Shown: positions 130 through 62,063 of the stretch, piece by piece
How the letters are laid out: each line of letters begins with the position of its first letter
Position numbering within the stretch: position 1 is the first letter of the stretch
Source: Saccostrea cucullata
Taxonomy: Eukaryota
Assembly: GCF_032062105.1 (NCBI RefSeq)
Contig: NW_026930547.1
Location: 124,001-188,000, forward strand
DNA: 64,000 nucleotides
Direction: 5' to 3'
Position numbers and translations under genes: made by a program
The notes under the pieces: generated by a model
What the model was told of the DNA's origin: nothing
The model's database searches: none
The model's input: only the letters and a program-made list of their open reading frames with translations

Positions 130-567
130 ATGGCAGTTTGGGTTACAACAACTGGATCAAACATACCAGAGGGGGCAGTAAGGGGTGGATATGAAGCGGA
201 TGGGAATCCTCTTTTTGTTGCCCGGGCACGAATTGAAGGCATCATGACGCCTGGAAAATGTGGATACCACATTCCTGGAGCTCATATTCCATATGGCATG
301 AAGGAACAAATCATCAATCAGTATGAGGTGTTGGTTCATCCCTCCAGAAGTCCTGGCTTTTTAGATTGGCAGAGGGCTTCTCATGGCAACGTGCCACCAA
401 ATGCCTACAGGACCGACAATGATACTTATGTCGGGAGAGCTTACTACCAGGGGAGTTTAGTCCCGGGGAAAATTGCCACTTCTCACCCTCACAAGTGTGC
501 TTACATAGGCTATGGAGGGAACGAAATCAGCATCAAGGATTATGAGGTCCTGTGTCAGATCAAATAA
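130..567 (+). CDS. DM9-repeat lectin (CGL1/DM9CP-like), copy 1, intact, 145 aa
   Basis: Two DM9 repeats (WV..GSNIPEGA.RGGYE.DG.PLF.ARA..PGK..AHIPYG..E..YEVL and W...G.VPPNA...YVGRA...VPGK...AYIGYGG.E...YEVL). tttcAG|a precedes the ATG; AATAAA at 721. Confidence 0.93.
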   Translation: MAVWVTTTGSNIPEGAVRGGYEADGNPLFVARARIEGIMTPGKCGYHIPGAHIPYGMKEQIINQYEVLVHPSRSPGFLDWQRASHGNVPPNAYRTDNDTYVGRAYYQGSLVPGKIATSHPHKCAYIGYGGNEISIKDYEVLCQIK

Positions 568-4569: not shown

Positions 4570-4960
4570 AACGAGTTGAATTATTGACAAACAAGTTGCT
4601 GAAACAAGAATATCAGCATCTTCGTTTAAAGCCATTATTTGGTAAGTTCTAGGGTCGATAAAACGACCCTGTCAGCAAGTACAATTCAGAATTAAATCAA
4701 ATGCTGATTGATATTTTTTCATCCTAATTTTTAGGTTATTATATACACACAGCATTGTCGACTGATTTTTCCGTTATTACACCCCATCATGACAAGGAGT
4801 ACACAGCGGGTGTGACCGGTCGGCAGGGGATGCTCCCTTCTTCATGGCACCTGATCCCACCTGTGATGTTTTGGAGGTCCGTGTTTGCTCTGTTCCTATT
4901 TTGTATTGTTTAATGGACTTTGAGCTTGAATCCTTCTCGATATCTCCATACATTTCATTA
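4570..4960 (+). mobile_element. Penelope-like element 3' end
   Basis: Homologous to the C-terminal ORF and 3' tail (gggtgtgaccggtcggcaggggatgct...ggcacctgatcccacc) of the 23.8-kb copy. Confidence 0.8.
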
Positions 4961-6118
4961 ATAAAGAAAAGAATTTACTGGGTACTGTATGCTTATTTCT
5001 TCAGGAGAATTATATGAAGTTTAAGTTACTTCTTACAGTATCTTAATTGAGCACTCCCTTAAACTTTAAAATTCATGGTGCTTCTAATTGAAAAATTTTG
5101 ATAATTTCTGCGGTGCACTATCTTTATTCCATAACAGCTCTAAAGATGAAAAATATTTGACCATATTTTGGGGCACAAATTATGCCCGCTCTACATTTTT
5201 AATGAAATGTTTGTTAAACTCTGGTCACTGTGAAACAATCTTTCCTACAGAAAACCTATTTTGATTTTTTTTTCTACGAGAAAGAGCTTTATAAAGTTGA
5301 AGACACACTTGCGAACAAGTTAAAATTTAGCAACGAAGACAAAAAAATCACTTCAGATGAATTTGTTAACATTTTAAAAATTAAAAATTAGAAATATACA
5401 TACTATTCTTTTTATTTCACTTTGATTCAACAGAAAAGGAAAAGAGTCCAAGAAAATAGAGTTATCAAAATATATCTACTAATGATTATTTTAATATATA
5501 AAATATAGATTTGAATGTATCTGATTCTTTCCACGTCGATTTCATTCGAAATGCTTTGTACACAGGGCCTCATAATCCTTGTAACTGAATTCAGCTCCAC
5601 AATAGCTAATGTATGCACAGTTATCAAAATATATACCAACATAAAATCCAAGGCGTTTGGTGGATTAGCCTTCTTTTCAAATATATAAAATATATAATTT
5701 TTGAGATTTCACAAATGTGATTTTTTTAACGAGTTTTGATAATTTTTTTTATTAACAAACTAAAAACAAAACTGTGAATAATATAAATTTGCATTTTTCA
5801 TTTAATTTGAAGTAGAAATTTCAATAATTGCTAAGTCTAGAAACCTTTTTGAATTTCGAAGCTCCACAATAGCTAATGTATGCACACTTGTAATAATACG
5901 CATGCAGGAGATTTTCTAGTGTGTTTTACAATTAATATTTTGAGTTTACATTTAGTAAATGCTTCATTAATTTGATTTAGTAAAAAGTTCTTATCACTTT
6001 CTTCAGTTTGATACAAAGTATTTATATTTTGATCAAAACAATTTCTGCACTCTTTCATATAGCGTAGATTTAATTCATGTGTTATCACCACGGCTTCCTT
6101 TTTGAGGGGCCGTAAACA

Positions 6119-6367
6119 AGCCTTCTGCCAATCTAAAAAACCAGGTTTTCTCAAGGGCAAAACCAACACCTCGTACTGATTGATGATTTCTTCTTTCCTT
6201 CCATATGGGATATGGGCTCCAGGAAGGTGAAAACCGCATTTTCCAGACGTCATGATACCATGAATCTTTGCTCGGGCAATAAAAAGTGGTCGCCCATCTG
6301 TCTCGTACCCTGCTCTTATTGCATCCTCTGGAATTTTTGAACCGGTAGTTGCTACCCAAACTGCCAT
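6119..6367 (-). pseudogene. DM9 lectin copy 2, inverted and truncated after the first repeat
   Basis: ttttacAG|a precedes ATG 6367. MAVWVATTGSKIPEDAIRAGYE...GFLDWQKA then runs into unrelated sequence; the second repeat was not found. Confidence 0.85.
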
Positions 6368-7053
6368 TCTGTAAAACAAATATTTCTGATATCATACTAT
6401 GTGTGTGTGTGTTTTTCTCAAAAAGGGAGCAATAACCAATCATCTTTAAATGCAAAAATAAAAACACGGCCAATACTCCTTCAAATTAATATGCAAGATT
6501 CCCTTATCATATAAAACAGATTCGATTTAAATCAATCGTAATTGTCCTTGTGATATGATGAAGCAACAACGAATGATTATAGAAAAGCACACATTTCTGT
6601 AAAAAAAAGACTTAGCATAACATACAGGAACTATTGTCGCAGTACTAATAAACGAAGAAAGACTTTTATTGTTTTATTTATATCTGTACTAATAATCAAT
6701 TAATGTAGGATTTAGTGATATACATGTATACGTCATTGTATATTTCATGTGAAGGTGTGTGCATGTTTGCGTCCTTTTAGTATTAAAATGATTTCAAGTT
6801 CATTAAAACAATCACCAATTCAAATCAGTTTTATGAAAATTTATACATTTTTAATCAAAATCATTGTGATTCAAAAATGTAAAAATAAATCCTATTAATT
6901 CAGATATGGTGCTGCCATATATTTTACTAATGAAACAACTACAGCGCTTTTCCTGTATATATATATTTTTCCACTTGACAACTTTTGGCAATCAGATAGA
7001 AGTATTTAATTAAAATACTTCTGTTTTTAATTTCATGTTCACATACCTTGATA

Positions 7054-19040: not shown

Positions 19041-19475
19041 ATGGTACGATGGGTAAAAACGACGGGGTCCAATATACCCGAGTGGGCAATAGAAGGTGGA
19101 TATGAGGCGAATGGGAGACCACTTTTTATTGCCCGAGCACAAATTGAAGGCGTCATGATACCTGGAAAATGTGGAAACCACCTTCCTGGAGCTCATATTC
19201 CATACAGGTCTGAAGAACGAATTGTTAAAGAGTATGACGTGTTGATTACTTCAAAAACTCCTGGATATTTTGATTGGCAAAGCGGTTCATTCGGCAATGT
19301 CCCATCACATGCTTTCAGAATAGATGATGGGATATATGTGGGTAGAGCGTTCTACCAAGGAGGTTTGGTGCCAGGGAAAGTTGATTCTTCTAGGAGGAGT
19401 GCATACATAAGCTATGGAGGGGAAGAAATCAGGATTCAGAATTACGATGTCTTCTGTGAGATTAAATTAGGATGA
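19041..19475 (+). CDS. DM9 lectin copy 4, intact, 144 aa
   Basis: Two DM9 repeats; tttcAG|a precedes the ATG. Confidence 0.92.
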   Translation: MVRWVKTTGSNIPEWAIEGGYEANGRPLFIARAQIEGVMIPGKCGNHLPGAHIPYRSEERIVKEYDVLITSKTPGYFDWQSGSFGNVPSHAFRIDDGIYVGRAFYQGGLVPGKVDSSRRSAYISYGGEEIRIQNYDVFCEIKLG

Positions 19476-22035: not shown

Positions 22036-22522
22036 GTTTATTACATTTTTAAAAAAAATTCTGCCCTTGCCTCTGTCTTTGTATAATACAGTAATAGGCT
22101 CGTGACGTCATAGTTGAGCGGTTGAGACGTCATAGCTATGTGAGGTGAAAACGATTTAGCAACATATTTTTGGTAATTTTGACAGTTTTATTCGCTCTCA
22201 GAATGGTTTATTTATTTCCGTCTATCTTATATTATGTCAAGGAAGTTTTTTTTTACAGCAATCTTCGTTATGGGAAGGGAATTCGAGAGTTTTCCCGCAC
22301 TTCTGATATTTGTCACACCGTGACAGGATATCATTTTGATATCCTTTCACACTGTGACAGGATATCATTTTTATTCAATGAATAAATTACAGTATCTCAC
22401 GGGTAAAAATGTAATAAATAAATGCACCATTGTTCACAATTTACATTAACAATAGAATATTTTGTACACATGCACGGCAGTAATGCACATCAGTATTGAA
22501 GTAGAAGATAAATCTATCATTC

Positions 22523-22914
22523 GGTGCAATAGTACCAAACGATGCAATAAGAGCTGGAAAACCACTTTTTATTGCAAGGGCTAGAATGGACGGCACCATG
22601 ACACCTGGGAAATGCGGGTTTCATCTTAATGGAGCCCATATTCCATATGATACGAAAGAGGAAGTCGTTCAATCTTACGAAGTTTTATTTTGCCTTCAAA
22701 AAGTAATGGTTTTTTAGATTGGCAGAGATGTTCTAACGGCTACGTGCCACCGAATGCCATTAAGACGGACGAAGGAATCTATGTTGGTAGAGCGTACCAT
22801 AAAGGGAGCTTAGTGCCAGGGAAAATCCTCGTTTCTCACAGCACTTCCTATGTCTGTTACGAGTGGGACGAGCACAGAATTAAAAATTACGAGGTGCTCA
22901 CGGAGGTCAAATGA
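22523..22914 (+). pseudogene. DM9 lectin copy 5, pseudogene and duplicate of copy 7
   Basis: Start codon and acceptor are lost. A 15-nt GGA-to-GGA deletion removes YEADG at about 22558, and there is a 1-nt frameshift at about 22688. The 3' half and flank match 38820-39815. Confidence 0.9.
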
Positions 22915-23674: not shown

Positions 23675-25712
23675 GAAAAACATGCGCAGGATTTCTTTTG
23701 GTTTATTATATGAAAATTGATTATTTATATATTTTTTTAAAAAACACGATTAATATTCTTAGAAATGTCGTACAGTGATCATTCATTGAATGAAAAATAT
23801 GGAGATAACGAACAGTATTCAATCTCAAAGTCCATAAAACAATACAAAATAAGAGCAGAGCAAACACGGACCCCCGAAACATCAGAGGTGGGATCAGGTG
23901 CCATGGAGGGGTGAGCATCCCCTGCCGACCGGTCACACTCGCCGTGTGCCCCTTGTCATGATCAGGAAATAACGGAAAAAATCCGTCGTCAATTCAGTGT
24001 ATAAATAATGGACTAACAATTGGTATGAGAAACGTCAGTCAGCATTTGACTCAATGATAAACTGTATTTTATGACAAGGTCATTGTATCGACCATAGAAC
24101 TTACGAAATGATGACTTTAAATGAAACTGCTGATATTCTTGTTTAGTCAACTTGCTTGTCAATAATTTACATCGTTTTAAAAATTGTTCATACGTAGAGC
24201 ATGCTCTTGCGTATCGAATCAACTGAGATATAAATACTCCGTATGCAGGTGATGAAGGTATATTGCTGCATAAGTAAGGGAAGTTGACGATAGAAAAGTT
24301 AAAGTCATCACGTTTATCATAAAGCTTGGTTGTTAGATTACCATTAGTGTCTTTTTCAAGTAAAATATCCAAGTATGAAACAGAAGTGTCGGACTCTTCA
24401 CACCACTTCTTGAATATATAGTTGCACAGTGCTCTTGAAGTTTTTCCTTCACTTCTGTCAATATCTTAGAGGGGAGTAACGAAAGAGGCTTGGTTAAACA
24501 TTTACTGGAACCTGCAATGTATCTTTGTTTGTGAGGATTCTTATGAAGTTTTGGAATCCAATATATATAAGGTAGTTCACCATATTTCAAGTTAAAGCCT
24601 ACACCTTGTATTTCCTACAAATATACATCGACCATTGTTTCCAAACTTTTCAATTACAAAAACACTTAACATGGCCTGGATACCGACTATCTGAAACATA
24701 ATCCTCCTTCGTGTTCATGTTCTTCTTCGCCCTATAACTATAGTCCTGCTGGACACGTTATTACAGGTGACGTAAATATAGTTCGTAATGAGGACCTTAG
24801 ATCACTTATTTTAAGAGGTCCTAAATATAGGGAACCCCGATCCTTCAACTGGCGTCGGAATTTCATAAATATTATGGATTCTGTGGAAAAATTACGCCAG
24901 ACAATGGGCAAGATATGAAAAAGAAGACGTTGACACCTTGTCAGAATGGATTAAATGTATCAGATTCATGTTAAAGTCCCGTATTAAAAGATTGAGGGGC
25001 AATATGAAAACCATATATCCTTCTGTGTTCAATAAACCAGAAGTGAAAAAGGAGTTAGATAGATTTCACGATCAGTACGTACTGGTTCCTGCCGACAAAG
25101 CAGGTAATAACATTGTCTTCGTTTGTAAGGCTCATTATATGACTTGCATTCTAGAAGAACTTGGTTTTAATTCTGCAAGTGGTAATCCTACTTATATATT
25201 ATAAGGAAGAAATTCTTCAAAAATACCTGTCAATTTTGAATACTTTTAATATTCCACAGAGCCAAAATGAATTTGAAATACAACACTGGACCCTTTTGTG
25301 ATTAAGAATATTACTTATATTCCTTTATTGGCATATTGAAGTTTAAGGAAAAAACGGATTGTTTTAGCTGCATTTTCTTCCGTGAAGCGTGCGGGTTTAA
25401 AGAGCCTATGACATGCAATATCCATAATCACAGATCCGAGTCTATATTCAGGTGACGAGGAATCTAAAATTGGATGTTCCTTGGCCTTTTCAAGAAGACT
25501 ATTCAAAAGTTTCAAAGAGACAGAGTAAATTTTTGTTCGAATATGATGTAGATCTAGCTGTTGATTTACATAAGGTAGTAATGAATCAAAAGAGACGTCG
25601 TGTATTGCAGGTTTATTGTACGAACGATGCCCATGACTACGCTTACGTCTCTGAGTATGGTTAAAAAGTCACATCACATTTACATTATTACACTGCGGAC
25701 TGGAAAGATTAG
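23675..25712. mobile_element. Rearranged Penelope-like insertion (-/+/- segments)
   Basis: Absent at the paralogous site 39815. 23790-24590 (-) carries YWIPKLHKNP, the thumb and the 3' tail. 24700-25285 (+) carries GPKYREP and LVPADKAGNNIVFVCK. 25290-25700 (-) carries FLKLQYANKGI. Confidence 0.85.
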
Positions 25713-28644: not shown

Positions 28645-29076
28645 ATGGTACGATGGATAATAATAACTGGGTCCAGTATATCACAGGGGTCAATAGAGGG
28701 TGGGTATAAGGCGAATGGGAGACCACTTTTTCTTGCCCGGGCACAAATTGAAGGTGTCATGACGCCTGGAAAATGTGGCTATCACCTTCCTGGAGCTCAT
28801 ATTCCATACAGGTCTGAAGAACGAATTGTTGAAGAGTACAATGTTTTGATTACTTCAAAAACTCCTGGATATTTTGATTGGCAAAGTGGTTCTTTCGGCA
28901 ATGTCCCATCACATGCGTTCAGAATGGATGATGGGATATATGTGGTTAGAGCGTTCTACCGAGGAGGTTTAGTGCCAGGGAAAGTTGATTCTTGTAGGAG
29001 TGCATACATAAGCTATGGAGGGGAAGAAATCAGGATTCAGAATTACGATGTCTTCTGTGAGATTAAATTAGGTTAA
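28645..29076 (+). CDS. DM9 lectin copy 6, open 143-aa ORF, duplicate of copy 4 with changes at conserved residues
   Basis: ttacAG|a precedes the ATG. Relative to copy 4 it has P13S, A16S, E22K, G101V and a one-codon deletion. Confidence 0.8.
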   Translation: MVRWIIITGSSISQGSIEGGYKANGRPLFLARAQIEGVMTPGKCGYHLPGAHIPYRSEERIVEEYNVLITSKTPGYFDWQSGSFGNVPSHAFRMDDGIYVVRAFYRGGLVPGKVDSCRSAYISYGGEEIRIQNYDVFCEIKLG

Positions 29077-30649: not shown

Positions 30650-33600
30650 TTGTTGATAAATTGTATTTGCTGACAAGGTCATTGTATCGACCATAGAACT
30701 TACGAAATGATGACTTTAAACGAAACTTAATGATTCTTTTTATTATAGCATAGCAGATATTAAGGTTAGAAAAATTCCAGGTACCCATTCAAACGGAAGT
30801 CGAATGAGTGACCATAGATACTTAAAATTTAGTTTTGATATTGATAAAACAAAAAAAGGTCCCGGATATTGGAAACTTAATGTTTCCTATCTCGATAATG
30901 ATAAATACAAAAATGGTATCTTAGACATTATTCAGAGTATAGATTCCTCTTTAAGTCCTATAATTACAGGTTAAAGATTTCTCTATTTATTTTGCAAAAA
31001 ATGAACAAAAATCAATTAAACAAAAGATAAGAACTATAGAACGCGAAATAGAAGATATGGAAGACGGAAATGTAGAAAATTTTGATTACAAAAGAATGAA
31101 AACTTTAGAAGCGGAACTAGACGCTATATACGACAAAAAATCTAAAGGTGCGCAGATAAGATCTAAAATTAAATGGATTGAGGAGGGGGAGAAAAATTCA
31201 AAATATTTTTTAAATTTAGAAAAGCGCAATCAATCCTCAAACATAATTAAAGAAGTAAAAACAAAAGAAGGGAATAAAATCAGTAAAACTAATGCCATTT
31301 TAGGTGAAATGCATTCTTTCTATAGCGATCTATATACGAGTAAAAACATTTCAAACGAACAAATTGAAAAATATTTATCTGAGATTGATGATATCCCTAA
31401 ATTAAGTGAAGAAGATAAGATATTGCTAGAAAAATTTCCAACATATGATGAGTGTAAGGAAGCTGTTGATAGCATGAAAAAAGAAAAATCACCTGGACTA
31501 GATGGCATTCCTAGTGAATTTTATCAATGTTTTTGGGATAAACTTGGACCCTACTTTTACAAAGCCCTAAATGATATTTTTGATAAAGGTGAATTGTCTT
31601 ACACACAGAAACTGTCTGTTATATCACTGATTTACAAAAAGGGTGAAAAAAATAATCTAAAAAATTATAGACCGATAAGTCTAACGAACACAAAATTACA
31701 AAATAATTGCCTTTGTCTTCGCAAAAAGATTACAAAATATATTATTTAAGTTAATTAACGAAAATCAAACTGCATACATAAAAGGAAGATATATCGGCGA
31801 AAATGCTAGATTGGTACTAGACGTATTTGAATACTGTGAAAGAGAAAATTCAGATGGTATTTTACTTTTCTTAGACTTTGAAAAAGCTTTTGACTCGGTT
31901 GAATGGAATTTTCTTTTCCAAGTCTTGCAAAAATTTAATATTGGCAATAGTTTTATAAAGTGGGCAAAAATTTTATATACAAATCCAATGTTTAAAATGA
32001 AAAACAACGGCTGGCTTTCTAAAACCAGCGAAATGACACGAGGCATTAGGCAAAGATGTCCTATTTCTGCTCTCTTGTACCTCTTTGTAGCAGAAATTTT
32101 AGCTATTAAGATAAAATGTGATACTGATATCAAAGGCATAACAATTAATAATCACGAAATTAAAAACATCCAGCATGCAGACGATTTGACTGTAGCTTTA
32201 AAAGATGAAATATCAATGAAGCGAACTTTGGATAAATTACAAGAATTTTGTAAACACGCGGGATATAAACATACATAAAACAGAATGCATTTTGTTGGGG
32301 GAACTAAAAAATTTGTATAATGAACTCTACGGTATTAAGATTACGAATAAAGCAGTAAGATGCTTGGGAATATTCATTGGACATGATAAGGAAGAATGCT
32401 ACACTAAAAACTGGATGAAAATTTATCATGATATTGAAAAACTTTTTGAATCCTGGAAAAGAAGAAAATTACATTATTTGGTAAATCATGTATAGTAAAG
32501 ACACTTGCTTTATCTAAACTTACATATGTTGCTTCAATTCTTAGTCTTCCTGATATTGCTTTCACAAAAAAATTACAACGTCTAATTTATAACTTTATTT
32601 GGGATAAAAATGAAAGAATTAAACGAAACACGCTTATAGGTAGAATTTCAAAAGGTGGACTATCAATTGTTGATATTGAATGTAAATTAAAAGCTTTAAA
32701 AGCGGCTTGGGTACCTAGATTGTTAAAGAACAAAGGCATTTTGTACAATATTTTTGATGGCTATTGTAAAAAATCAAATTTTGATGCTTTTTATGTGTTA
32801 GGTTTTTCCGATAGAAAGATAGAAAATATGGCAAAAATAGAGAAACTACCTATTTTTTATCAACAAATGTTATGTTGCTTTAATGAATGTAAGCCCTGTT
32901 TTTTGAACAAAATGTCTTCCGATAATGTTCTTCAACAGCCGATATGGAACAATTGTAACTTTGTATATAAAGGTAATACTCTATTTTTTAAAAACTGGAT
33001 AGCCAGTGGCATTTTACATGTTAAAGATTTATTTAACGATGATGGTAAATTCAAATCATTGTTAGATTTTACGAATTGTATAAAAAACAAGTCAAACTGG
33101 TTGTGCGAATTTAAAATTCTTACTTCTGTTTTCAAACCCTTACTACTTAAGTATGATTTTTCAAATTGTTGGTTTGTTAACATACGATACAGAAACCATT
33201 TTCTTTTCTACACAGGATATGTTAATGTCATAGATCAAAGATGTAGTTTTTTCTATGAAAACCTTGTACACAGAAAATTTTGTAAACCATGTTATCAAAC
33301 AGTTTTAAGCAAAGAGTTCAGTGTTGAATCCTCAGAATGGAAAAATATATATCAATGTAAATTATATGACATACCCGATAGACACATTACAGAATTCAAC
33401 TATAAACTTTTAAACAATATTCTTTGTAATAATTTCTACCTCAGTAAATTGAAGAAAGAAACGAGTAGTCATTGCAAATCATGCCACGTGAACGAAACTT
33501 CAAAACATCTTATTTTTGAATGTAGAAATGTTATTGAAATATGGAACAGATTAAGTTTTACCTTAAAATAGATATCAAATGGAAACATCTTGTAATTGGA

Positions 33601-34640
33601 TTTAGCTCTGAGCGCAATAGAAAAATTGTATCACTAAACACACTCATCTCTTATGTTGCCTATAGAATTTACAAATATAAAATGTATTGTCGACTACATT
33701 CCTTGGATGAAACTAGCTATAACATTTTTAATCATGTTAAATCTTCAATTTTTTTCTATGCCTCCATTATGAAAAATTTAAACACTCTTGTAGACTACAG
33801 ACTTTTTAAAAATTTTGCACAAAATATTACTCTTTCTGATAACATGTTTTAACTGTAAGGTAATATTGTCACATTGTCTTGTGTTTGTAATGTAATTTCC
33901 CTGTTATATATATTTCACTGTTTGTTGGTATTTTGAAATGAAAATAGAATTATATAAAAAAAAAAAAAGACTTTAAACGAAACTGCTGATATTCTTGTTT
34001 CATCAACTTGCTTGTCAATAATTTACCTCGTTTTAGAAATTGTTCTTACGTAGAGCATGCTCTTGCGTATCGAATCAACTGAGATATATATACTCCGTAT
34101 GCAGGTGATGACGGTACATTGCTGCATAAGTAAGGGACATTGACGATAGAAAAGTTAAAGTCATCACGTTTATCATATAGCTTGGTTGTTAGATTACCAT
34201 TAATGTCTTTTTCAAGTAAAATATCCAAGTATGAAACAGAAGTGTCGGACTCTGTAGTATCTTTTATCTCAAGCTCACCAGGACATACATGTATCGTATC
34301 GACGTTGGAATGGAAATTACCATTATTAATTGACAATACGCCGTCGATATATCTGAATGTCGAGTTGAAGGCCACAGCAAGTGTTTTCTTCTTTTCAAGC
34401 ATAAGATTTTGCATAAATTCTGCTTCATATGAATAAAAAAATAAGTCTGCTATTAATGGTACCCATGGGAATTCCAATAGATTGTTGGAATACCTGGTTT
34501 CCGAAAACCACATAGATATTGTCAATCAGAAACTCAAGCATCTTCTTGATGTCAACTTCAGAGTACTTATGTGTGCAATCAGAATCTGTTTTAACAAAAT
34601 AATTTTGCAAATGACCAATTACGAGGTTAGTAAATTTACG
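30650..34640 (-). mobile_element. Penelope-like RT fragment interrupted by a LINE
   Basis: 34640-33985 encodes QQSIGIPMGT, ADLFFYSYE, FRYIDGVLSINN, YDKRDDFNF and SQLIRYARAC; the sequence continues at 30727-30650. Confidence 0.88.
30728..33968 (+). mobile_element. 5'-truncated Tx1/L1-clade non-LTR retrotransposon (ORF2, several frameshifts)
   Basis: APE end (SDH...GPGYWKLN), EGEKNSKYF, KSPGLDG, YRPISL, LDFEKAFDSV, GIRQRCPIS, QHADD and a CxxC..H..C knuckle. A13 tail at 33956-68; 16-bp TSD gactttaaacgaaact at 30712 and 33969. Confidence 0.93.
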
Positions 34641-38617: not shown

Positions 38618-39049
38618 ATGGCGAGCTGGGTATCAACAAGCGGGTCAAGCATACCACCCGAGGCAGTAAGAGCTGGATATGAGGCTGACGGAAGACCACT
38701 TTTTATTGCAAGGGCTATCATGAGTGGCACCATGACACCCGGGAAATGCGGGTATCATCTTGATGGAGCCCGTATTCCATATGCCTCGAGTGAGCACATC
38801 GTTAATTGTTATGAAGTTCTAGTTTTTCCTTCAATTAGTAATGGGTTTTTAGATTGGCAGAAATGTTCTAACGGCTACGTGCCAGACAACGCTTTCAAGA
38901 CGGACGACGGGATCTATGTCGGTAGAGCGTACCATGAAGGGAGCCTAGTGCCAGGGAAAATCCACGTTTCTCACAAAACTGCCTACGTCAGTTATGGGGG
39001 AGATGAACACGCTATTAAAGATTACGAGGTGCTCACGGAGGTCAAATGA
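38618..39049 (+). CDS. DM9 lectin copy 7, intact, 143 aa
   Basis: Two DM9 repeats; tttacAG|a precedes the ATG; AATAAA at about 39189. Confidence 0.93.
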   Translation: MASWVSTSGSSIPPEAVRAGYEADGRPLFIARAIMSGTMTPGKCGYHLDGARIPYASSEHIVNCYEVLVFPSISNGFLDWQKCSNGYVPDNAFKTDDGIYVGRAYHEGSLVPGKIHVSHKTAYVSYGGDEHAIKDYEVLTEVK

Positions 39050-45836: not shown

Positions 45837-46274
45837 ATGGCAGTTTGGGTAACAACATTTGGGTCGCACATACCAGAAGGAGCAATGAGAGGTGGATTTG
45901 AGGCTGATGGTCGACCTCTCTTTATCGCTCGGGCACAGATTGAAGGAATCATGACGCCCGGAAAATGTGGATTTCACCTTCCTGGAGCGCTGTTCCCATT
46001 CGGCATGACAGAACAATCTTCCTATATGTACGAGGTGCTGGTCCATCCAACAAGAAGTCGCGATTTTTTCGACTGGCAGAGGGCTTCCGAAGGCAAGGTG
46101 CCGCCAAATGCTTACAAGACGGACAAAGACACGTATATTGGTAGAGCTTTCTACCAAGGAAATCTATTGCCAGGGAAAATTGCCACGGGACATCCTCACT
46201 GGTGTGCATACATTGGTTATAGAGGGAATGAAATTAGTACGAAGGATTATGAGGTTCTTTGTCAGTTAAAATAA
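45837..46274 (+). CDS. DM9 lectin copy 8, intact, 145 aa
   Basis: atcAG|a precedes ATG 45837; the track start at 45819 is an intronic TTG. Two DM9 repeats, with GALFPF in place of GAHIPY. Confidence 0.9.
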   Translation: MAVWVTTFGSHIPEGAMRGGFEADGRPLFIARAQIEGIMTPGKCGFHLPGALFPFGMTEQSSYMYEVLVHPTRSRDFFDWQRASEGKVPPNAYKTDKDTYIGRAFYQGNLLPGKIATGHPHWCAYIGYRGNEISTKDYEVLCQLK

Positions 46275-51463: not shown

Positions 51464-51901
51464 ATGGCAGTTTGGGTTACAACAACCGGGTCAAACATAC
51501 CAGAGGGGGCAATAAGGGGTGGATATGAGGCGGATGGGAAACCACTTTTTATTGCCCGAGCACAAATTGAAGGCGTCATGACGCCTGGAAAATGTGGAAA
51601 TCACCTTCCTGGAGCTCATATTCCATATGGCATGAAGGAACAAATCTTCAAACAGTACGAAGTGTTGGTTCATCCCTCGGGTAATCCTGGATTTTTAGAT
51701 TGGCAGAAGGTTTCTAACGGCAACGTGCCACCGAATGCCTATAGGACCGACAATGATACGTATGTTGGGAGAGCTTTCTACCAGGGGAGTTTAGTGCCAG
51801 GGAAAGTTGCTTCTTCTGAGCCTCACAAGTGTGCATACATCGGTCACGGGGGCCAAGAAATCAGTGTAAAGGAATGTGAGGTTCTGTGTCAGATGAAATA
51901 A
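51464..51901 (+). CDS. DM9 lectin copy 9, intact, 145 aa (closest overall to copy 1)
   Basis: tttcAG|t precedes the ATG; two DM9 repeats. Confidence 0.93.
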   Translation: MAVWVTTTGSNIPEGAIRGGYEADGKPLFIARAQIEGVMTPGKCGNHLPGAHIPYGMKEQIFKQYEVLVHPSGNPGFLDWQKVSNGNVPPNAYRTDNDTYVGRAFYQGSLVPGKVASSEPHKCAYIGHGGQEISVKECEVLCQMK

Positions 51902-55435: not shown

Positions 55436-55873
55436 ATGGCAGTCTGGGTAACCACCACCGGATGTCACATTCCTGAAGGAGCGATACGAGCAGGGTACGA
55501 GGCAGACGGTCGGCCACTTTTTATTGCCCTGGCGCAAATTGAAGGCATCATGACGCCTGGTAAATGTGGCTATCACTTACCGGGAGCCCATATTCCGTAC
55601 GGATGTAAAGAGAGGATTATTAGCCAGTACGAGGTGTTGGTCCATCCGACAAACGCCTCGGGCTTTTTTGATTGGCAGCGTGCTTCCGGCGGAAATGTTC
55701 CTGATACTGCGTTCAAGACTGACAAGGAGACTTATATTGGTCGGGCTCACCATTCGGGGAGCCTTATTCCGTGTAAGATTGCTACAGGGTACCAACATAA
55801 ATGTGCTTACATGAGTTATGGCGGGAAAGAACATAACACAAAGGACTATGAGGTGCTCTGCACAATCAAATAA
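55436..55873 (+). CDS. DM9 lectin copy 10, intact, 145 aa
   Basis: aacAG|a precedes ATG 55436; two DM9 repeats, with SLIPCK as recalled for CGL1. Confidence 0.92.
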   Translation: MAVWVTTTGCHIPEGAIRAGYEADGRPLFIALAQIEGIMTPGKCGYHLPGAHIPYGCKERIISQYEVLVHPTNASGFFDWQRASGGNVPDTAFKTDKETYIGRAHHSGSLIPCKIATGYQHKCAYMSYGGKEHNTKDYEVLCTIK

Positions 55874-57840: not shown

Positions 57841-59193
57841 ACAAACAACGTTTGTGAGATATTGTGACGTCATAATGCCTCTGCACGCACACTGACTCTC
57901 CGATGAATACATACATGAATGTCTTCTAATTATAATCCAGTGAATATGTAGTGTTAGGAACTGCTTGCCTTTATATAGATTACTGGTATACAGGGACTCT
58001 TTATAGACTCTATGTTAAAATGCTTTAGCCGATTAGCTGTCTAGCTCCTTTTCAATGTCATGACGCCACCAACATTACTTCTGAACTGTAAATGATTAAT
58101 GACCATAAAAGCACAAGACCAATCATTCAAAAATGATGGGCAGGATTAAATTTTGCATATGTGACAACTACAAAGTCAAATTTTCTGAGTGTTAGTACCA
58201 CAAAAAGGGTCTTGAGAAAGTGAAATCTTGTTATCTATGATACTTGATAAATCTTTTTGGAATCTTCAAATACAAAATGTAAGCCTGTTTCTTCCAAACA
58301 GATTTCCGTGTTCTCTTTTTTTTAACCCTTTTCAGACCACCTGAATATTGGTTTATTACTTTTGACTTGTTTTGATTAAGCCCCATTTCAACTGTTGTGC
58401 AATCAAATTCTGTTTAAAAGTCATTAAGTTGCTAACAAGCTTTTGTTACGTAAAATTCCTGCTAAGCGGATTTGATTATTTTTCACCCCATTCCATAGTA
58501 CGCAAACTATTGATTGATAGATAAACAAGTCGGTTTTAAAGAGTCTAGATTTTTTTTACTTTTCACAATCTATATTTTCAATCAACACTTGGTGTGTGAA
58601 TATGCAATTTGTGTCTGCAGATAAATCTATTTTGCAAATTCAATCAATTTAAAAGAACTTGTTTAAATATAAGTTTGTTTAAATTTTGACAATGCCTTTT
58701 ATATCTGATGTATTAGGCGTGAATATATCTGGTATTGTCTCCACCAAGCTTTAACTATTGTCTACAAATGTTAACAAAAAAATCCAGCAATTCCCATTTT
58801 TATACTGTAAAATGGTTCGTCACACTCACTTAATTTTAATTCAATCTCCGACTGTTCCTCGGATAAATAAACACTCCTTATCCCTCTGTTATACACAACA
58901 CGATTATTTTCCTATCGGCATTATTCATATGGGGTATACCTTAGCAGTGATAATTTCCTACCATGAAATTTAGTGTGTATTTACACTGCAAAAGGTAATG
59001 GAACTTAGGGGAACAAAACCTGGGAAATGTTGAATAAATACGGCATACCTTTTTTATTGACATAAATTGTGTAAAGATATGCGAAAGAGATTATTGATTG
59101 TGCAACAGTTTGAATGCCAAAATAAAATCGGATGCCATTACTGATAATTTAAAAAATCTATCGCCTTAACATCCAATGGTGGCAAAAAGGTAA

Positions 59194-59196
<3 letters not shown>

Positions 59197-59254
<58 letters not shown>
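59197..59254 (+). repeat. (TC)29 microsatellite just after a candidate donor (aag|gtaagg at 59189/59190)
   Basis: Read directly. Confidence 0.97.
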
Positions 59255-59259
<5 letters not shown>

Positions 59260-59639
59260 GATTAAGGACATACGCAACGTACCTTACCTACTGATAATTT
59301 TTCAAGGTATTCTTAATTTAAGGTTATAGTGATATCAGATGTTCAAAGACAAAAAATCAGCATGCATTACCAGGTGTTTTTGAAAGATAAAAATTAATGA
59401 AAAGTTTTGGATTATACAAAGAAAAATATGTAAAGAATACTACACATATATTATAGATGTTTCTTTTGTCCAAAATTGTTTTTGAATATGTGTACAATAC
59501 CATAACGTTGAAATCAAAATATAACACACAGTTCCTTGAAGAATTAGAACTCTTCAGCCCCATGGAAAAAGACAATAAAGTTCAAACTACGTTGCGTATG
59601 ACTTTGAGTGCTGATCCAGATTTTTTGTATTCAGGGAGG

Positions 59640-62063
59640 ATGTCGAGGTCGATTTTAAAAAAGGACTGTCAGCGCTTCTTCAGGGCAGGAATCCTCGTTC
59701 TCAAACAAGGAACATCACTGCTGCAGATGCTTCTCGATCTTCAGCTTCATCAAATGCATGTCTCTCTCGGGGAACTTCTATCTCAATATCACCATGAACT
59801 TTTTCACTCATGGCAGAAAAGTCCTTGTTGTGCTTGCCCAACCCAAAAGGCCTCTTACTTTTCTGGCTTTTTACTAAAACAACAATACGAAGATTTGTTT
59901 GATTTTGTTCCAAAGCATGATCGCGACTGTAGAAATATTAAGACATCTGTACATGGCCTGTGCAGCTGTCGGTATGAAGTTATAAATGGCATAACCGCCA
60001 AAAGTCTTGATATCATTGTAACGTCTATGCTTCTCCTTAATTTGGAATGTTTTCACTTTGATGATGACGTCATTGAGGCGATCTCTGAGCTACGGAGACT
60101 TAGAAATGAGATAGTTGCCAAAGGTTCCACAATGAGTTTTACAGAAGATGAGTTCACTTTGTTCTGGAATAGAGCTAATCCCTCTATAACGAAAATTGCC
60201 AAAGAAATTTCTGATCAATTTCTTAAGCAAACAGTTGAAAACATCCGGGTTCTAAAGGATGAACCTCTTCATCTATATTCAGCCATGGTTGTCATTACCA
60301 CAATACGTCACGGTAACCAAAGAGAGTTGGCATTTCTAAAGGTAATGCTACATACTGCATGAAACACATGTTTAAACTCCCTCCAAGTAATAAAAAAGAA
60401 AATACTACCAGAAATTGGATAATTGTCAAATTACACTATATATTTTTCAGGACTTGGAACATGCACAGAGATTGCTGAGCGACAGGCGTCAAGGTGAACT
60501 TTTACCAATGCTGAACTTTGGTTTAGAAGTAGTCTGTTCAACATTTGGACTTTCTAACCCTGCTCTTAAGGTATTGCTTTCCTAGCGATATTGCTTTAAA
60601 ATTATTTCCACCCCAAAGCATGTATCTGTCATCTCATACCATTTACTTTTGAGGATTCGTTGGTGTTTGCCAAACTATTGGGTCATAATCATGTCGCAGG
60701 TACTTTTATTTTCATTTATGTACTAACTTCAATATTGCTATAGGAAATGCAGAATTCTAAATTCCTGTTGCATAATGGGAAGACCATGGACCTTATCAAA
60801 ACTTTCTCCAGTCCTTGGATGAAAAAGCTGATAAAATCTAGGCTCTTGGTTCAAGAACAGACTGAGATCTGGCTCGAAGAATTGTGGGCTGCAGACCCTC
60901 TAAGTAAGTCAAGTGGTTAATGAATAAATGTGTTTTTAGTAATTTCATTCAATACACATTTATGTTTCAAACATATGTTTTAGGACCAAAGACAAATTCA
61001 AATTTAGGATTCATATCGTGCGGTAAAAACATCATATTGTCCAACGATCGCCGACATGCAGTATGGAACTTTATAGAATCGGAAGGTGTGACATTCAGTA
61101 GTAGAGCGATGAATCACTTAGAGCATGCGCATCTTGAAATCATGGGGAGTGGGGAGGTTGCTGTTGGTGTATTGGAAAGTGATCCGATGATTCAAAGGCA
61201 ACGGTTATCTTCTTTTTCTGCATGTCCCGAGTTTAAGACTGCCATTGTAGTGAAAACATTCGAGTCCTCGAGCCTAGTAAAGATGGTTCGGGATGTTGAC
61301 GAGTTAGTGATTTATTGTGACAAGCAACGATATGTGTTATACATTGAGCAAGGGAAAAGGGTGTGGCTTGTGTTTTGCCTACGATTTGGAGATGTGAAGA
61401 TTGAACTACGTGAGTAAAATTTGAACCAAAAAAGGTGCTTGTTAGAAAGATTATTTGAAACCAAATACTATCAGTTAATTAAAATTTTATTCAGTTCTTT
61501 AGCTTAAGTTGGCAACGCTTAATTCAAATGACTTTTTTAATATACTATAAACTTTAATTATTTTAGACTCATCAGCAAATCATGCAATGAAGTTTCATGA
61601 CGTCATGGGAAGCAATGTACAGGCAACTGGAGGAAACAAACGTCTGCTCTGTCTAAAACATGTCAATTCGCAATCCGTGTGTCGTCTGAGCAGGCGAATC
61701 CATTATGGTGAGGAGGTCACTCTATTCATTAGACAAGAGAAACCTACCAATGTTCATGCCATTCCATGCTACATTCTTATAGGCATCAGTGCAGACGGAC
61801 TCCATAACGGGTCCCTACATGACGATCAACCATTCACTTCCGCATCACGTTCGTGGCTCATAAAAAGGAAATTAGAAGAGTTAGAATGTATTGGAAAGAT
61901 CCAAGTTTGTGTGTCTATGAATGGATTACTGAAATTTGTTACCTCTAAAGGCTCAACTTTAACAGTGCAACTTAGTGAAAGTGAAAAAAAGATGGGTGTT
62001 GCGGTGGTTTTCGAATTATTTCGGACAGAACTTGAAATCGTTAACTATAAAATTAAACAATAA
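59640..62063 (+). CDS. 634-aa protein with a DZIP3-like HEPN domain and two Neuralized (NHR)-like domains. Exons 59640-60341, 60451-60570, 60744-60903, 60984-61409, 61567-62063
   Basis: All introns are GT-AG with matching phases (0,0,1,1), giving a 1905-nt open frame; branch point TACTAAC at 60721. HEPN-like LDI....LL...I..LRRLRN....S..E.EF..FW. NHR-like GF..CGKNIILSNDRRHA.....GVTFSSR and KFHDVMGSNV. Confidence 0.8.

What the first reader, a model, noticed from the sequence alone, without database searches (positions are those of the whole stretch)
59640..62063. Unusual HEPN plus 2x Neuralized-repeat gene next to the lectin array
Seen: a clean 5-exon, 634-aa frame that the ORF track splits into three pieces. 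The N-terminus resembles DZIP3/hRUL138-like HEPN with a Cys-rich insert (CCAC...H..DC...CSC). The C-terminus has two NHR-like beta domains and no RING. Known: DZIP3-like HEPN domains are expanded in bivalves and are often fused to immune-type sensor domains; NHR domains bind peptides. Inference: an intracellular sensor-effector or adaptor, possibly linked to the signal-peptide-less lectins. I know of no description of this architecture but cannot search.
Basis: partly seen in the sequence, partly recalled or inferred. Interest (0 to 1): 0.7.

Follow-up and report, generated by a model that had tools for sequence, protein, structure and literature searches.

The report
Oyster pseudo-RNase HEPN fused to tandem-NHR
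This is a real, spliced, single-copy oyster gene whose RNase-type (HEPN) domain lacks the family's catalytic histidine in every orthologue examined and is joined to two Neuralized-type domains, so it likely works as a non-cutting adaptor or brake among the oyster's hundreds of HEPN proteins rather than as a lectin-triggered weapon.

Summary
The five-exon, 634-aa frame is exact, equals RefSeq XP_062566652.1 (Saccostrea cucullata, uncharacterized), and all four junctions appear in RNA contigs of a close relative. The N-terminus is a DZIP3-type HEPN with a Cys/His insert. The C-terminus is two NHR domains, with no RING. The eight predicted metal ligands and an RRLR patch are conserved, so this is most likely a pseudo-RNase. 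The Cys insert is family-wide, not special. The NHR pair comes from a bivalve tandem-NHR family whose other members end in a low-complexity tail, often plus CARD. None of 117 other library hits holds both halves. The gene is single-copy, under purifying selection, and present in Saccostrea, Magallana, Crassostrea and probably pearl oysters. Adjacency to DM9 lectins holds in Saccostrea but appears broken in Magallana, so a functional link is unsupported. Verdict: an architecture not found in the papers searched, built from known domains, likely a non-catalytic adaptor. Partners are unknown.

The parts
59640..60341 (+). Exon 1 (aa 1-234): the whole HEPN domain plus the start of the helical stalk; ends in phase 0
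59658..60269 (+). DZIP3-type HEPN domain, about aa 7-210; four-helix core with insert
   Evidence: Pfam E 0.0023; 40 of 56 relatives hit PF18738; model pLDDT 91.3; HEPN structures are 7 of the top 12 VIA rows
59793..59969 (+). Cys/His insert, aa 52-110 (H52, H56, C63, C64, C66, C97, C108, C110); predicted to bind zinc, not tested
   Evidence: all eight kept in 4 of 4 orthogroup rows that cover the region, and in 30-48 of 50 related HEPNs
60102..60119 (+). Degenerate HEPN motif R155-N-E-I-V-A160: Ala at the catalytic His column
60451..60570 (+). Exon 2 (40 codons, phase 0-0): helical stalk
60744..60903 (+). Exon 3: helical stalk (aa 275-327); no family match, low model confidence
60984..61409 (+). 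Exon 4 (phase 1-1): NHR1, Pfam Neuralized aa 339-459
61567..62063 (+). Exon 5: NHR2 (about aa 474-630) and the stop codon; AATAAA overlaps the stop at 62059
59620..59634 (+). Splice acceptor 5 nt before the ATG, likely used by an upstream 5' UTR exon (isoform X2). RefSeq isoform X1 reads through it and adds 14 aa that the orthologues lack
   Evidence: the X2-run contig has 29 extra letters before 59635
55436..55873 (+). Nearest DM9 lectin gene (145 aa); context only, no functional link shown

Best explanation
The gene encodes a 634-aa protein whose HEPN domain lacks the catalytic histidine and is fused through a helical stalk to two NHR domains, and it likely works as a non-catalytic cytosolic adaptor: the pseudo-HEPN would bind RNA (or an RNA-bound HEPN complex) without cutting it, while the NHR pair is predicted to recruit a protein partner. 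Shown: gene structure, splicing, fold classes, loss of the His in all orthologues examined, retention of the Cys/His ligands and an RRLR patch, single-copy status, purifying selection. Inferred: zinc binding, loss of RNase activity, RNA binding, partner binding by the NHRs, and any immune role. Inferred origin: exon shuffling joined a HEPN exon to a duplicated tandem-NHR module before or early in the oyster radiation; the His was then lost once and the gene was kept for a binding role.
For: His column: 47 of 50 related HEPNs have H, and 44 of 50 have a full Rx4-6H, against 0 of the 6 orthogroup rows in the alignment. S. echinata, M. gigas and C. virginica full-length proteins also lack it. It is the only column conserved in at least 90% of relatives that the orthogroup has lost. 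No other His is invariant in the orthogroup's HEPN except the family-wide H52 and H56. R152, R153 and R155 are invariant in 5 of 5 orthogroup rows; R153 occurs in only 4% of relatives. The His is essential in RNase L KEN, RloC and PrrC, and motif-less HEPNs are proposed to be RNA binders (PMC3710099 section 6; passages). The orthogroup is one clade in both the HEPN tree (SH-aLRT 100) and the NHR tree (100/100). Conservation is even across domains: 80-88% to S. echinata, 51-64% to M. gigas and C. virginica. 19 of 22 listed differences to a close relative are synonymous, against 22% expected. Neuralized NHR1 binds Delta (PMC5675594 passages). Related tandem-NHR proteins look like adaptors: 9 of 19 scanned have a C-terminal CARD at E <= 0.001, 4 of them over the Pfam cut-off.
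Against: No binding or activity was measured. The HEPN domain is not basic overall (net charge -1, pI 6.7), which does not favour RNA binding. R155 and N156 are largely kept (N156 is H in C. virginica), and some HEPN families use alternative active-site residues. The structural match to HEPNs is middling: best Z 8.5, tied with designed helical bundles, and Foldseek found nothing at E <= 0.001. The full-length model is poor outside the NHRs (pTM 0.51), so the domain arrangement is unknown. The profile of this NHR family lacks a 5-residue loop present in Neuralized NHR1, so the known peptide-binding mode may not carry over. The 22 differences are only those the tool printed, of about 219 rows, and transition bias was not corrected.
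Confidence: 0.5

Rival explanations
1. Brake or tuner of the HEPN arsenal: the dead HEPN would pair with active DZIP3-type HEPN RNases, spoiling or gating their shared active site, while the NHRs would tether or release it on a signal.
For: The genome holds at least 150 PF18738 matches from 891 candidates. It also holds 21 other exon-1-like loci; 10 of the 14 examined keep RN..H. This gene stays single-copy and conserved. That HEPN RNases act as dimers with a shared active site is recalled knowledge, not tested here.
Against: The nearest genomic paralogues are only 21-35% identical, so a compatible interface is not given. No expression or phenotype data exist.
Confidence: 0.2
2. Non-immune scaffold: an immune-derived domain pair domesticated for a housekeeping or developmental role, in which the HEPN is a purely structural zinc-helical module.
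For: Single copy, identical length (632-634 aa) across three genera, branching that follows the species tree, and presence in all 4 RNA data sets laid (these were chosen for holding it). Downstream neighbours are kinase genes.
Against: About 60% identity to Magallana and Crassostrea is lower than the neighbouring DM9 (74-78%) or the methyltransferase (71%). Both donor families have immune-type architectures (STAND, TIR, ankyrin, beta-propeller, CARD).
Confidence: 0.15
3. Still an active RNase using alternative catalytic residues or a histidine supplied in trans, switched on when the NHRs bind a ligand.
For: R155 is invariant and N156 nearly so. Alternative active-site His residues are described for some HEPN families. 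Neuralized repeats are SPRY-like folds coupled to effectors in eukaryotic immunity (PMC8195603 passage; structural hits).
Against: The His column drifts among A, K, S and D. No orthogroup-specific invariant His exists; H211 and H224 are not kept in P0025 and lie outside the core.
Confidence: 0.1
4. Dedicated downstream partner of the neighbouring DM9 lectins: DM9 binds microbial glycan in the cytosol and docks on the NHRs.
For: Adjacent in S. cucullata and S. echinata (XP_061177369.1 DM9, XP_061177370.1 orthologue, same 25,118,145-bp scaffold); same 64,991,568-bp chromosome in C. virginica. The DM9 ORFs start directly with the domain, no leader seen by eye. CgDM9CP-6 is reported as a cytosolic receptor (PMC12379375 abstract).
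Against: In M. gigas two gene models (K1QF52, A0A8W8L898) fuse the orthologue to an upstream methyltransferase gene, implying adjacency. That gene lies on a 60,847,761-bp chromosome in M. angulata, while the listed DM9 genes lie on 61,934,658- and 57,608,718-bp chromosomes. In this genome the methyltransferase's best match is on another contig. The published DM9CP-6 partner is 14-3-3 epsilon. No DM9-to-HEPN joint was among the rows shown (15 of 65 joints printed).
Confidence: 0.07

Closest known systems
DZIP3/hRUL138-like HEPN proteins of bivalves (PF18738; Anantharaman 2013 PMC3710099; Takeuchi 2022 PMC9646362)
   Same: N-terminal HEPN encoded on one exon, same fold class and family profile; R-N of the motif present; Cys/His insert shared with a large bivalve subfamily
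   Different: Lacks the motif His, which 194 of 202 P. fucata members keep. Single-copy and conserved rather than expanded. [quoted passage not shown]
CXorf38/DUF4559-type HEPN ('Zn ribbon inserted into HEPN', PMC3710099 Table 1)
   Same: A Zn-ribbon-like insert inside a HEPN domain is already described there; 3 of 56 aligned members hit DUF4559
   Different: The query itself does not hit DUF4559. CXorf38 is listed as active and fused to dsRBD, NACHT, ankyrin, CARD or Death.
Bivalve tandem-NHR proteins with disordered tail and often CARD (e.g. Mercenaria XP_053385095.1, Mytilus XP_063436730.1; uncharacterized)
   Same: Homologous NHR1-NHR2 module; a paralogue in this genome has the intron between the repeats at the same codon and phase
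   Different: There the NHR pair is N-terminal and followed by a tail with or without CARD; here it is C-terminal, has no tail, and follows a HEPN and stalk.
Neuralized / NEURL E3 ligases (NHR-NHR-RING)
   Same: Two NHR domains; best structural match is Drosophila Neuralized NHR, 2yue, Z 12.2, rmsd 3.9 over 151 residues
   Different: No RING; only 14-19% identity; a 5-residue loop is missing in the family profile. Much stronger Neuralized-family matches lie elsewhere in the genome.
Inactive eukaryotic HEPNs (Swt1, human sacsin, nematode expansions)
   Same: HEPN fold with loss of the motif, proposed to bind RNA or nucleotides; Swt1 and sacsin structures are among the top VIA rows
   Different: Different HEPN families and different partner domains; function there is also mostly proposed rather than shown.

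Membership tests
DZIP3/hRUL138-like HEPN (PF18738) | Profile match above the Pfam gathering score | tested here: not met
   18.2 bits (exon 1) and 15.8 bits (whole protein) against cut-off 27
DZIP3/hRUL138-like HEPN (PF18738) | Homology to family members over the whole domain | tested here: met
   86 of 117 other library hits match the N-terminal domain only; 40 of 56 aligned members hit PF18738 at E <= 0.01, best 1.3e-10
HEPN superfamily | Four-helix HEPN fold | tested here: inconclusive
   Confident helical model (pLDDT 91.3). 7 of the top 12 VIA rows are HEPN structures (Swt1 and Roquin identified as HEPN from recall), best Z 8.5, rmsd 2.8, 112 aligned, but tied with designed bundles. Foldseek had no match at E <= 0.001.
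Active HEPN RNases | Rx4-6H catalytic motif | tested here: not met
   R155-N-E-I-V-A-K-G; no His in any orthogroup row; 44 of 50 relatives have the motif
Active HEPN RNases | RNA cleavage activity | not testable with these tools
   needs an assay
Active HEPN RNases | Dimer forming a shared active site | tested here: inconclusive
   one job run, no verdict returned
CXorf38/DUF4559 HEPN | Match to PF15112 | tested here: not met
   no hit at E <= 1 for the query; 3 of 56 relatives hit
NHR (Neuralized, PF07177) | Repeat 1 above the gathering score and with the NHR fold | tested here: met
   35.3 bits, E 1.3e-8; model pLDDT about 90 there; 2yue Z 12.2; 4kg0 Foldseek E 8.9e-6
NHR (Neuralized, PF07177) | Repeat 2 is an NHR | tested here: met
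   Transitive only: no direct Pfam hit, but E 1.4e-24 to a profile of non-orthologues' repeat 2, whose members hit PF07177 over repeat 2 (P0026 170-318, P0035, P0041)
Neuralized / NEURL1 E3 ligases | C-terminal RING finger | tested here: not met
   protein ends with NHR2; no RING at E <= 1
Neuralized / NEURL1 E3 ligases | Binding of NxxN-type peptides | not testable with these tools
   the motif is described in PMC5675594; a loop difference is seen
NLR/STAND-type HEPN sensor-effectors | NACHT/STAND NTPase and repeat sensor | tested here: not met
   none in Pfam scans of the three orthologues; present in some relatives

The most novel reading that the evidence does not exclude
Oysters keep one conserved, catalytically dead HEPN as a master regulator of their hundreds of DZIP3-type HEPN RNases: a pseudo-RNase that pairs with active members and uses tandem NHR domains as a ligand-controlled switch. 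It would be an animal counterpart of an antitoxin for an expanded RNase arsenal.
Probability: 0.12. Interest if true: 0.8.

Novelty: new variant of a known kind. Interest (0 to 1): 0.42.

Why it matters
Bivalves carry hundreds of DZIP3-type HEPN domains that are assumed to be antiviral or suicidal RNases. I found no direct test of one in the passages read, nor any account of how they are held in check. A single-copy member that lost only the catalytic histidine and has been kept across oyster genera is a natural handle on that question, and it has an orthologue in the lab-tractable Pacific oyster (XP_011415378.3). It also points to an apparently unnamed bivalve tandem-NHR(-CARD) adaptor family. 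If it proves to be a generic scaffold, it is one more shuffled bivalve architecture.

Tried and rejected
1) A first exon model with a donor at 60494 broke the frame (27 stops) and was rejected. 2) A mixed HEPN+NHR alignment (A3) misaligned the NHR rows (about 10% identity) and was not used. 3) Foldseek of the HEPN model found nothing at E <= 0.001; the PDB sequence search with the HEPN profile found no HEPN. 4) The homodimer prediction with zinc gave no verdict (score 0.04, mark 0.32, my alignment not used): neither for nor against. 5) ESM Atlas gave no usable hit for the whole protein or aa 205-335. The orthologue profile found nothing for the stalk in PDB. A TPR-like look of the stalk is by eye only. 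6) A metagenome scan for orthologous loci found none (287 pattern matches, 0 confirmed), so synteny outside Saccostrea rests on accessions, contig lengths and fused models. 7) Contig depth for DM9 versus this gene varies between runs, but contigs cannot rank expression, so it was not used. 8) R98-x6-H105 inside the insert looks like a motif but is not kept in M. gigas, C. virginica or P0025: rejected as a substitute site. 9) The 1182- and 1210-aa methyltransferase fusions in M. gigas are taken as annotation merges, since RefSeq and transcript-type records list the 632- and 546-aa proteins separately and the two junctions differ. 11) Literature searches found no paper describing HEPN+NHR or citing these accessions; two of the five terms were guessed identifiers and carry no weight. 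Supplements: Takeuchi 2022 could not be read; only a 4-kb file of Anantharaman 2013 was held; 13 files of Kaur 2021 had no NHR term, one file not searched. Unread tables could list this architecture. 12) Earlier findings of this scan: none.

Full report
1. Observation. Exons 59640-60341, 60451-60570, 60744-60903, 60984-61409 and 61567-62063 join through GT-AG introns into 634 codons plus stop. A protein of the same sequence is RefSeq XP_062566652.1 (LOC134228967 X2, Saccostrea cucullata, 'uncharacterized'), on a contig of the same length as the one holding this window. Contigs from four runs of a relative about 94% alike skip intron 1 (3 of 4 runs) and introns 2-4 (4 of 4) at the predicted places; one run is on record as RNA, three are guessed RNA. 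Of the 22 coding differences that one search printed (about 219 rows in all), 19 are synonymous, against 22% expected. The gene is real, transcribed in a close relative, and constrained.

2. N-terminal domain. Pfam HEPN_DZIP3 matches weakly (18.2 bits, cut-off 27). An exhaustive search of 1.84 billion representatives gave 118 hits. Of the 117 others, 86 match only the N-terminal domain, 31 only the NHR part, and none both. 40 of 56 aligned N-terminal sequences hit PF18738 and 3 hit DUF4559. The exon-1 model is confident (pLDDT 91.3, pTM 0.88). Its best structural matches include Csm6 (Z 8.5 and 8.3), Swt1, Roquin, AF0298, 1wwp and sacsin, 7 of the top 12 rows, though designed helical bundles score alike and Foldseek found nothing significant. 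The Cys-rich insert is a subfamily trait: H52, H56, C63, C64, C66, C97, C108 and C110 occur in 30-48 of 50 relatives. A Zn ribbon inserted in a HEPN is already noted for the CXorf38 family (PMC3710099 passages). Zinc binding itself is inferred.

3. The HEPN active-site motif is Rx4-6H, and its His is essential in RNase L KEN, RloC and PrrC (PMC3710099 section 6, read in full). Here it reads R155-N-E-I-V-A-K. The His column holds A in both Saccostrea species, D in M. gigas, K in C. virginica and S in two unnamed records (P0024, P0025), while 47 of 50 non-orthologous relatives have H and 44 of 50 a full motif. In this genome 10 of 14 examined paralogous loci keep RN..H. In P. fucata 194 of 202 family members keep it (PMC9646362 passages). 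The His is the only column conserved in at least 90% of relatives that the orthogroup has lost, and no orthogroup-specific His replaces it. R152, R153 and R155 are invariant in the orthogroup, R153 being rare elsewhere. The orthogroup forms one clade among motif-bearing sequences (SH-aLRT 100; P0024 and the near-duplicate P0146 left out; midpoint root), which fits a single loss.

4. C-terminal domains. NHR1 passes Pfam. NHR2 does not, and the two repeats are not detectably alike pairwise, but NHR2 matches a profile of non-orthologues' second repeat at E 1.4e-24, and those repeats hit PF07177. The model is confident there (pLDDT mostly 80-92), and Drosophila Neuralized NHR is the top structural match (Z 12.2; Foldseek ranks 4kg0 third, behind galectin and RyR SPRY rows). 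There is no RING. The module's relatives are bivalve proteins with N-terminal NHR-NHR and a low-complexity tail; 9 of 19 scanned end in a CARD (4 over the cut-off). A paralogue on contig C17232 has the inter-repeat intron at the same codon and phase, which supports origin by duplication and exon shuffling. The stalk (aa 211-333) is conserved (59% to M. gigas, 29% to Pinctada), predicted helical with low confidence, and unassigned.

5. Spread and copy number. Full-length orthologues of 632-634 aa exist in S. echinata (83%), M. gigas (61%) and C. virginica (60%). A Pinctada imbricata model (467 aa) has the stalk and both NHRs but no HEPN. Two unnamed ENA proteins, a His-less HEPN (P0025) and an NHR2 (P0023, 57% to the Pinctada protein), come from contigs of the same length, probably one locus. 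So the fusion probably predates the oyster/pearl-oyster split, but that is inferred from fragments. The nearest Mytilus protein has no HEPN. In this genome each exon finds a single strong match, against at least 150 PF18738 matches from 891 candidates (lower bound, haplotigs not removed).

6. The lectin link. Seven DM9 ORFs of the window were confirmed, and none shows a leader by eye. A cytosolic role for one oyster DM9, through 14-3-3, is published (PMC12379375 abstract and section 24). In S. echinata the DM9 and the orthologue have consecutive accessions on one scaffold; in C. virginica they share a chromosome, at unknown distance. In M. gigas two gene models merge the orthologue with an upstream methyltransferase gene. 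That gene lies in M. angulata on a chromosome other than those of the listed DM9 genes, and in this genome its best match is on another contig without a HEPN-NHR match. This is indirect, but it suggests the neighbourhood is old and breakable. The downstream neighbours are two kinase genes. Nothing here supports a functional tie.

7. Mechanism. Best reading (0.5): a non-catalytic adaptor whose pseudo-HEPN holds RNA or an RNA-bound complex while the NHR pair recruits a partner. Against it: the domain is not basic overall and nothing was assayed. Rivals: brake on active paralogues (0.2), non-immune scaffold (0.15), active RNase by another route (0.1), DM9 partner (0.07). That the domain is catalytically dead is much better supported (about 0.85) than any particular binding role.

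8. Novelty. Both domains, inactive HEPNs, Zn inserts in HEPN and promiscuous HEPN fusions in bivalves are known. Ten literature searches found no description of HEPN+NHR or mention of these accessions. The only paper holding DZIP3, HEPN and neuralized together uses them for different proteins (PMC9334734 passages); PMC4769524 mentions only 'neuralized pats1'. Some supplements could not be read. Rating: new variant of a known kind, interest 0.42, down from 0.7 because shuffled HEPN architectures are common in bivalves and the lectin link is weak, but above ordinary because a conserved single-copy pseudo-RNase gives a testable handle on an unstudied family.

Noticed in passing
window 130-567, 19041-19475, 28645-29076, 38618-39049, 45837-46274, 51464-51901, 55436-55873 (+): Seven intact single-exon DM9 lectin ORFs of 143-145 aa; the nearest is 90% identical to S. 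echinata and 74-78% to Crassostrea/Magallana copies.
   Followed up: partly
window about 22480-22914 (+) and 5873-6391 (-): Two broken DM9 copies: one split across reading frames, one on the minus strand that diverges after the first repeat. Birth-and-death in the array.
   Followed up: partly
P0040, P0041, P0067, P0075, P0084, P0087, P0088, P0092, P0129: A bivalve family of NHR-NHR-tail-CARD proteins whose CARD resembles caspase-9 CARD; no description found. May deserve its own look as immune or apoptosis adaptors.
   Followed up: partly
L027 (G000:C17232) 3-458 and 4672-6510 (+): Tandem-NHR paralogue with a long low-complexity tail bearing several Tyr-in-acidic-context motifs and no Pfam domain.
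   Followed up: partly
P0033, P0037, P0038, P0049, P0051, P0059, P0061, P0065, P0104, P0108, P0109, P0133 and others: 23 of 117 hits match the HEPN profile twice; many have two CCxC motifs about 105 aa apart, suggesting a duplicated zinc insert inside one HEPN. Some are fused to nSTAND3.
   Followed up: no
L022 6670-6969, L023 3027-4094, L024 5509-5868 (+), downstream of the window: Kinase exons (Pfam Pkinase); they look like TTK/Mps1 and a MAP3K14/NIK-like gene, names recalled by eye and not tested.
   Followed up: no
L030 673-3258 (+), about 17 kb upstream of the window: An 862-aa single-ORF protein with three FkbM-type methyltransferase stretches.
   Followed up: no
window 30720-33852 (+) and 24013-25668: Fragmented non-LTR retrotransposon-like ORFs between DM9 copies, judged by eye.
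   Followed up: no
window 59188-59255 and about 59266-59610: A (CT)n microsatellite and a multi-copy repeat directly upstream of the start codon; the 14 extra residues of RefSeq isoform X1 lie at its edge and are absent from orthologues.
   Followed up: partly
P0007, P0008 (M. gigas UniRef K1QF52, A0A8W8L898): Database entries that merge a methyltransferase gene with this gene's orthologue; likely annotation errors that mislabel it 'methyltransferase domain-containing protein'.
   Followed up: partly
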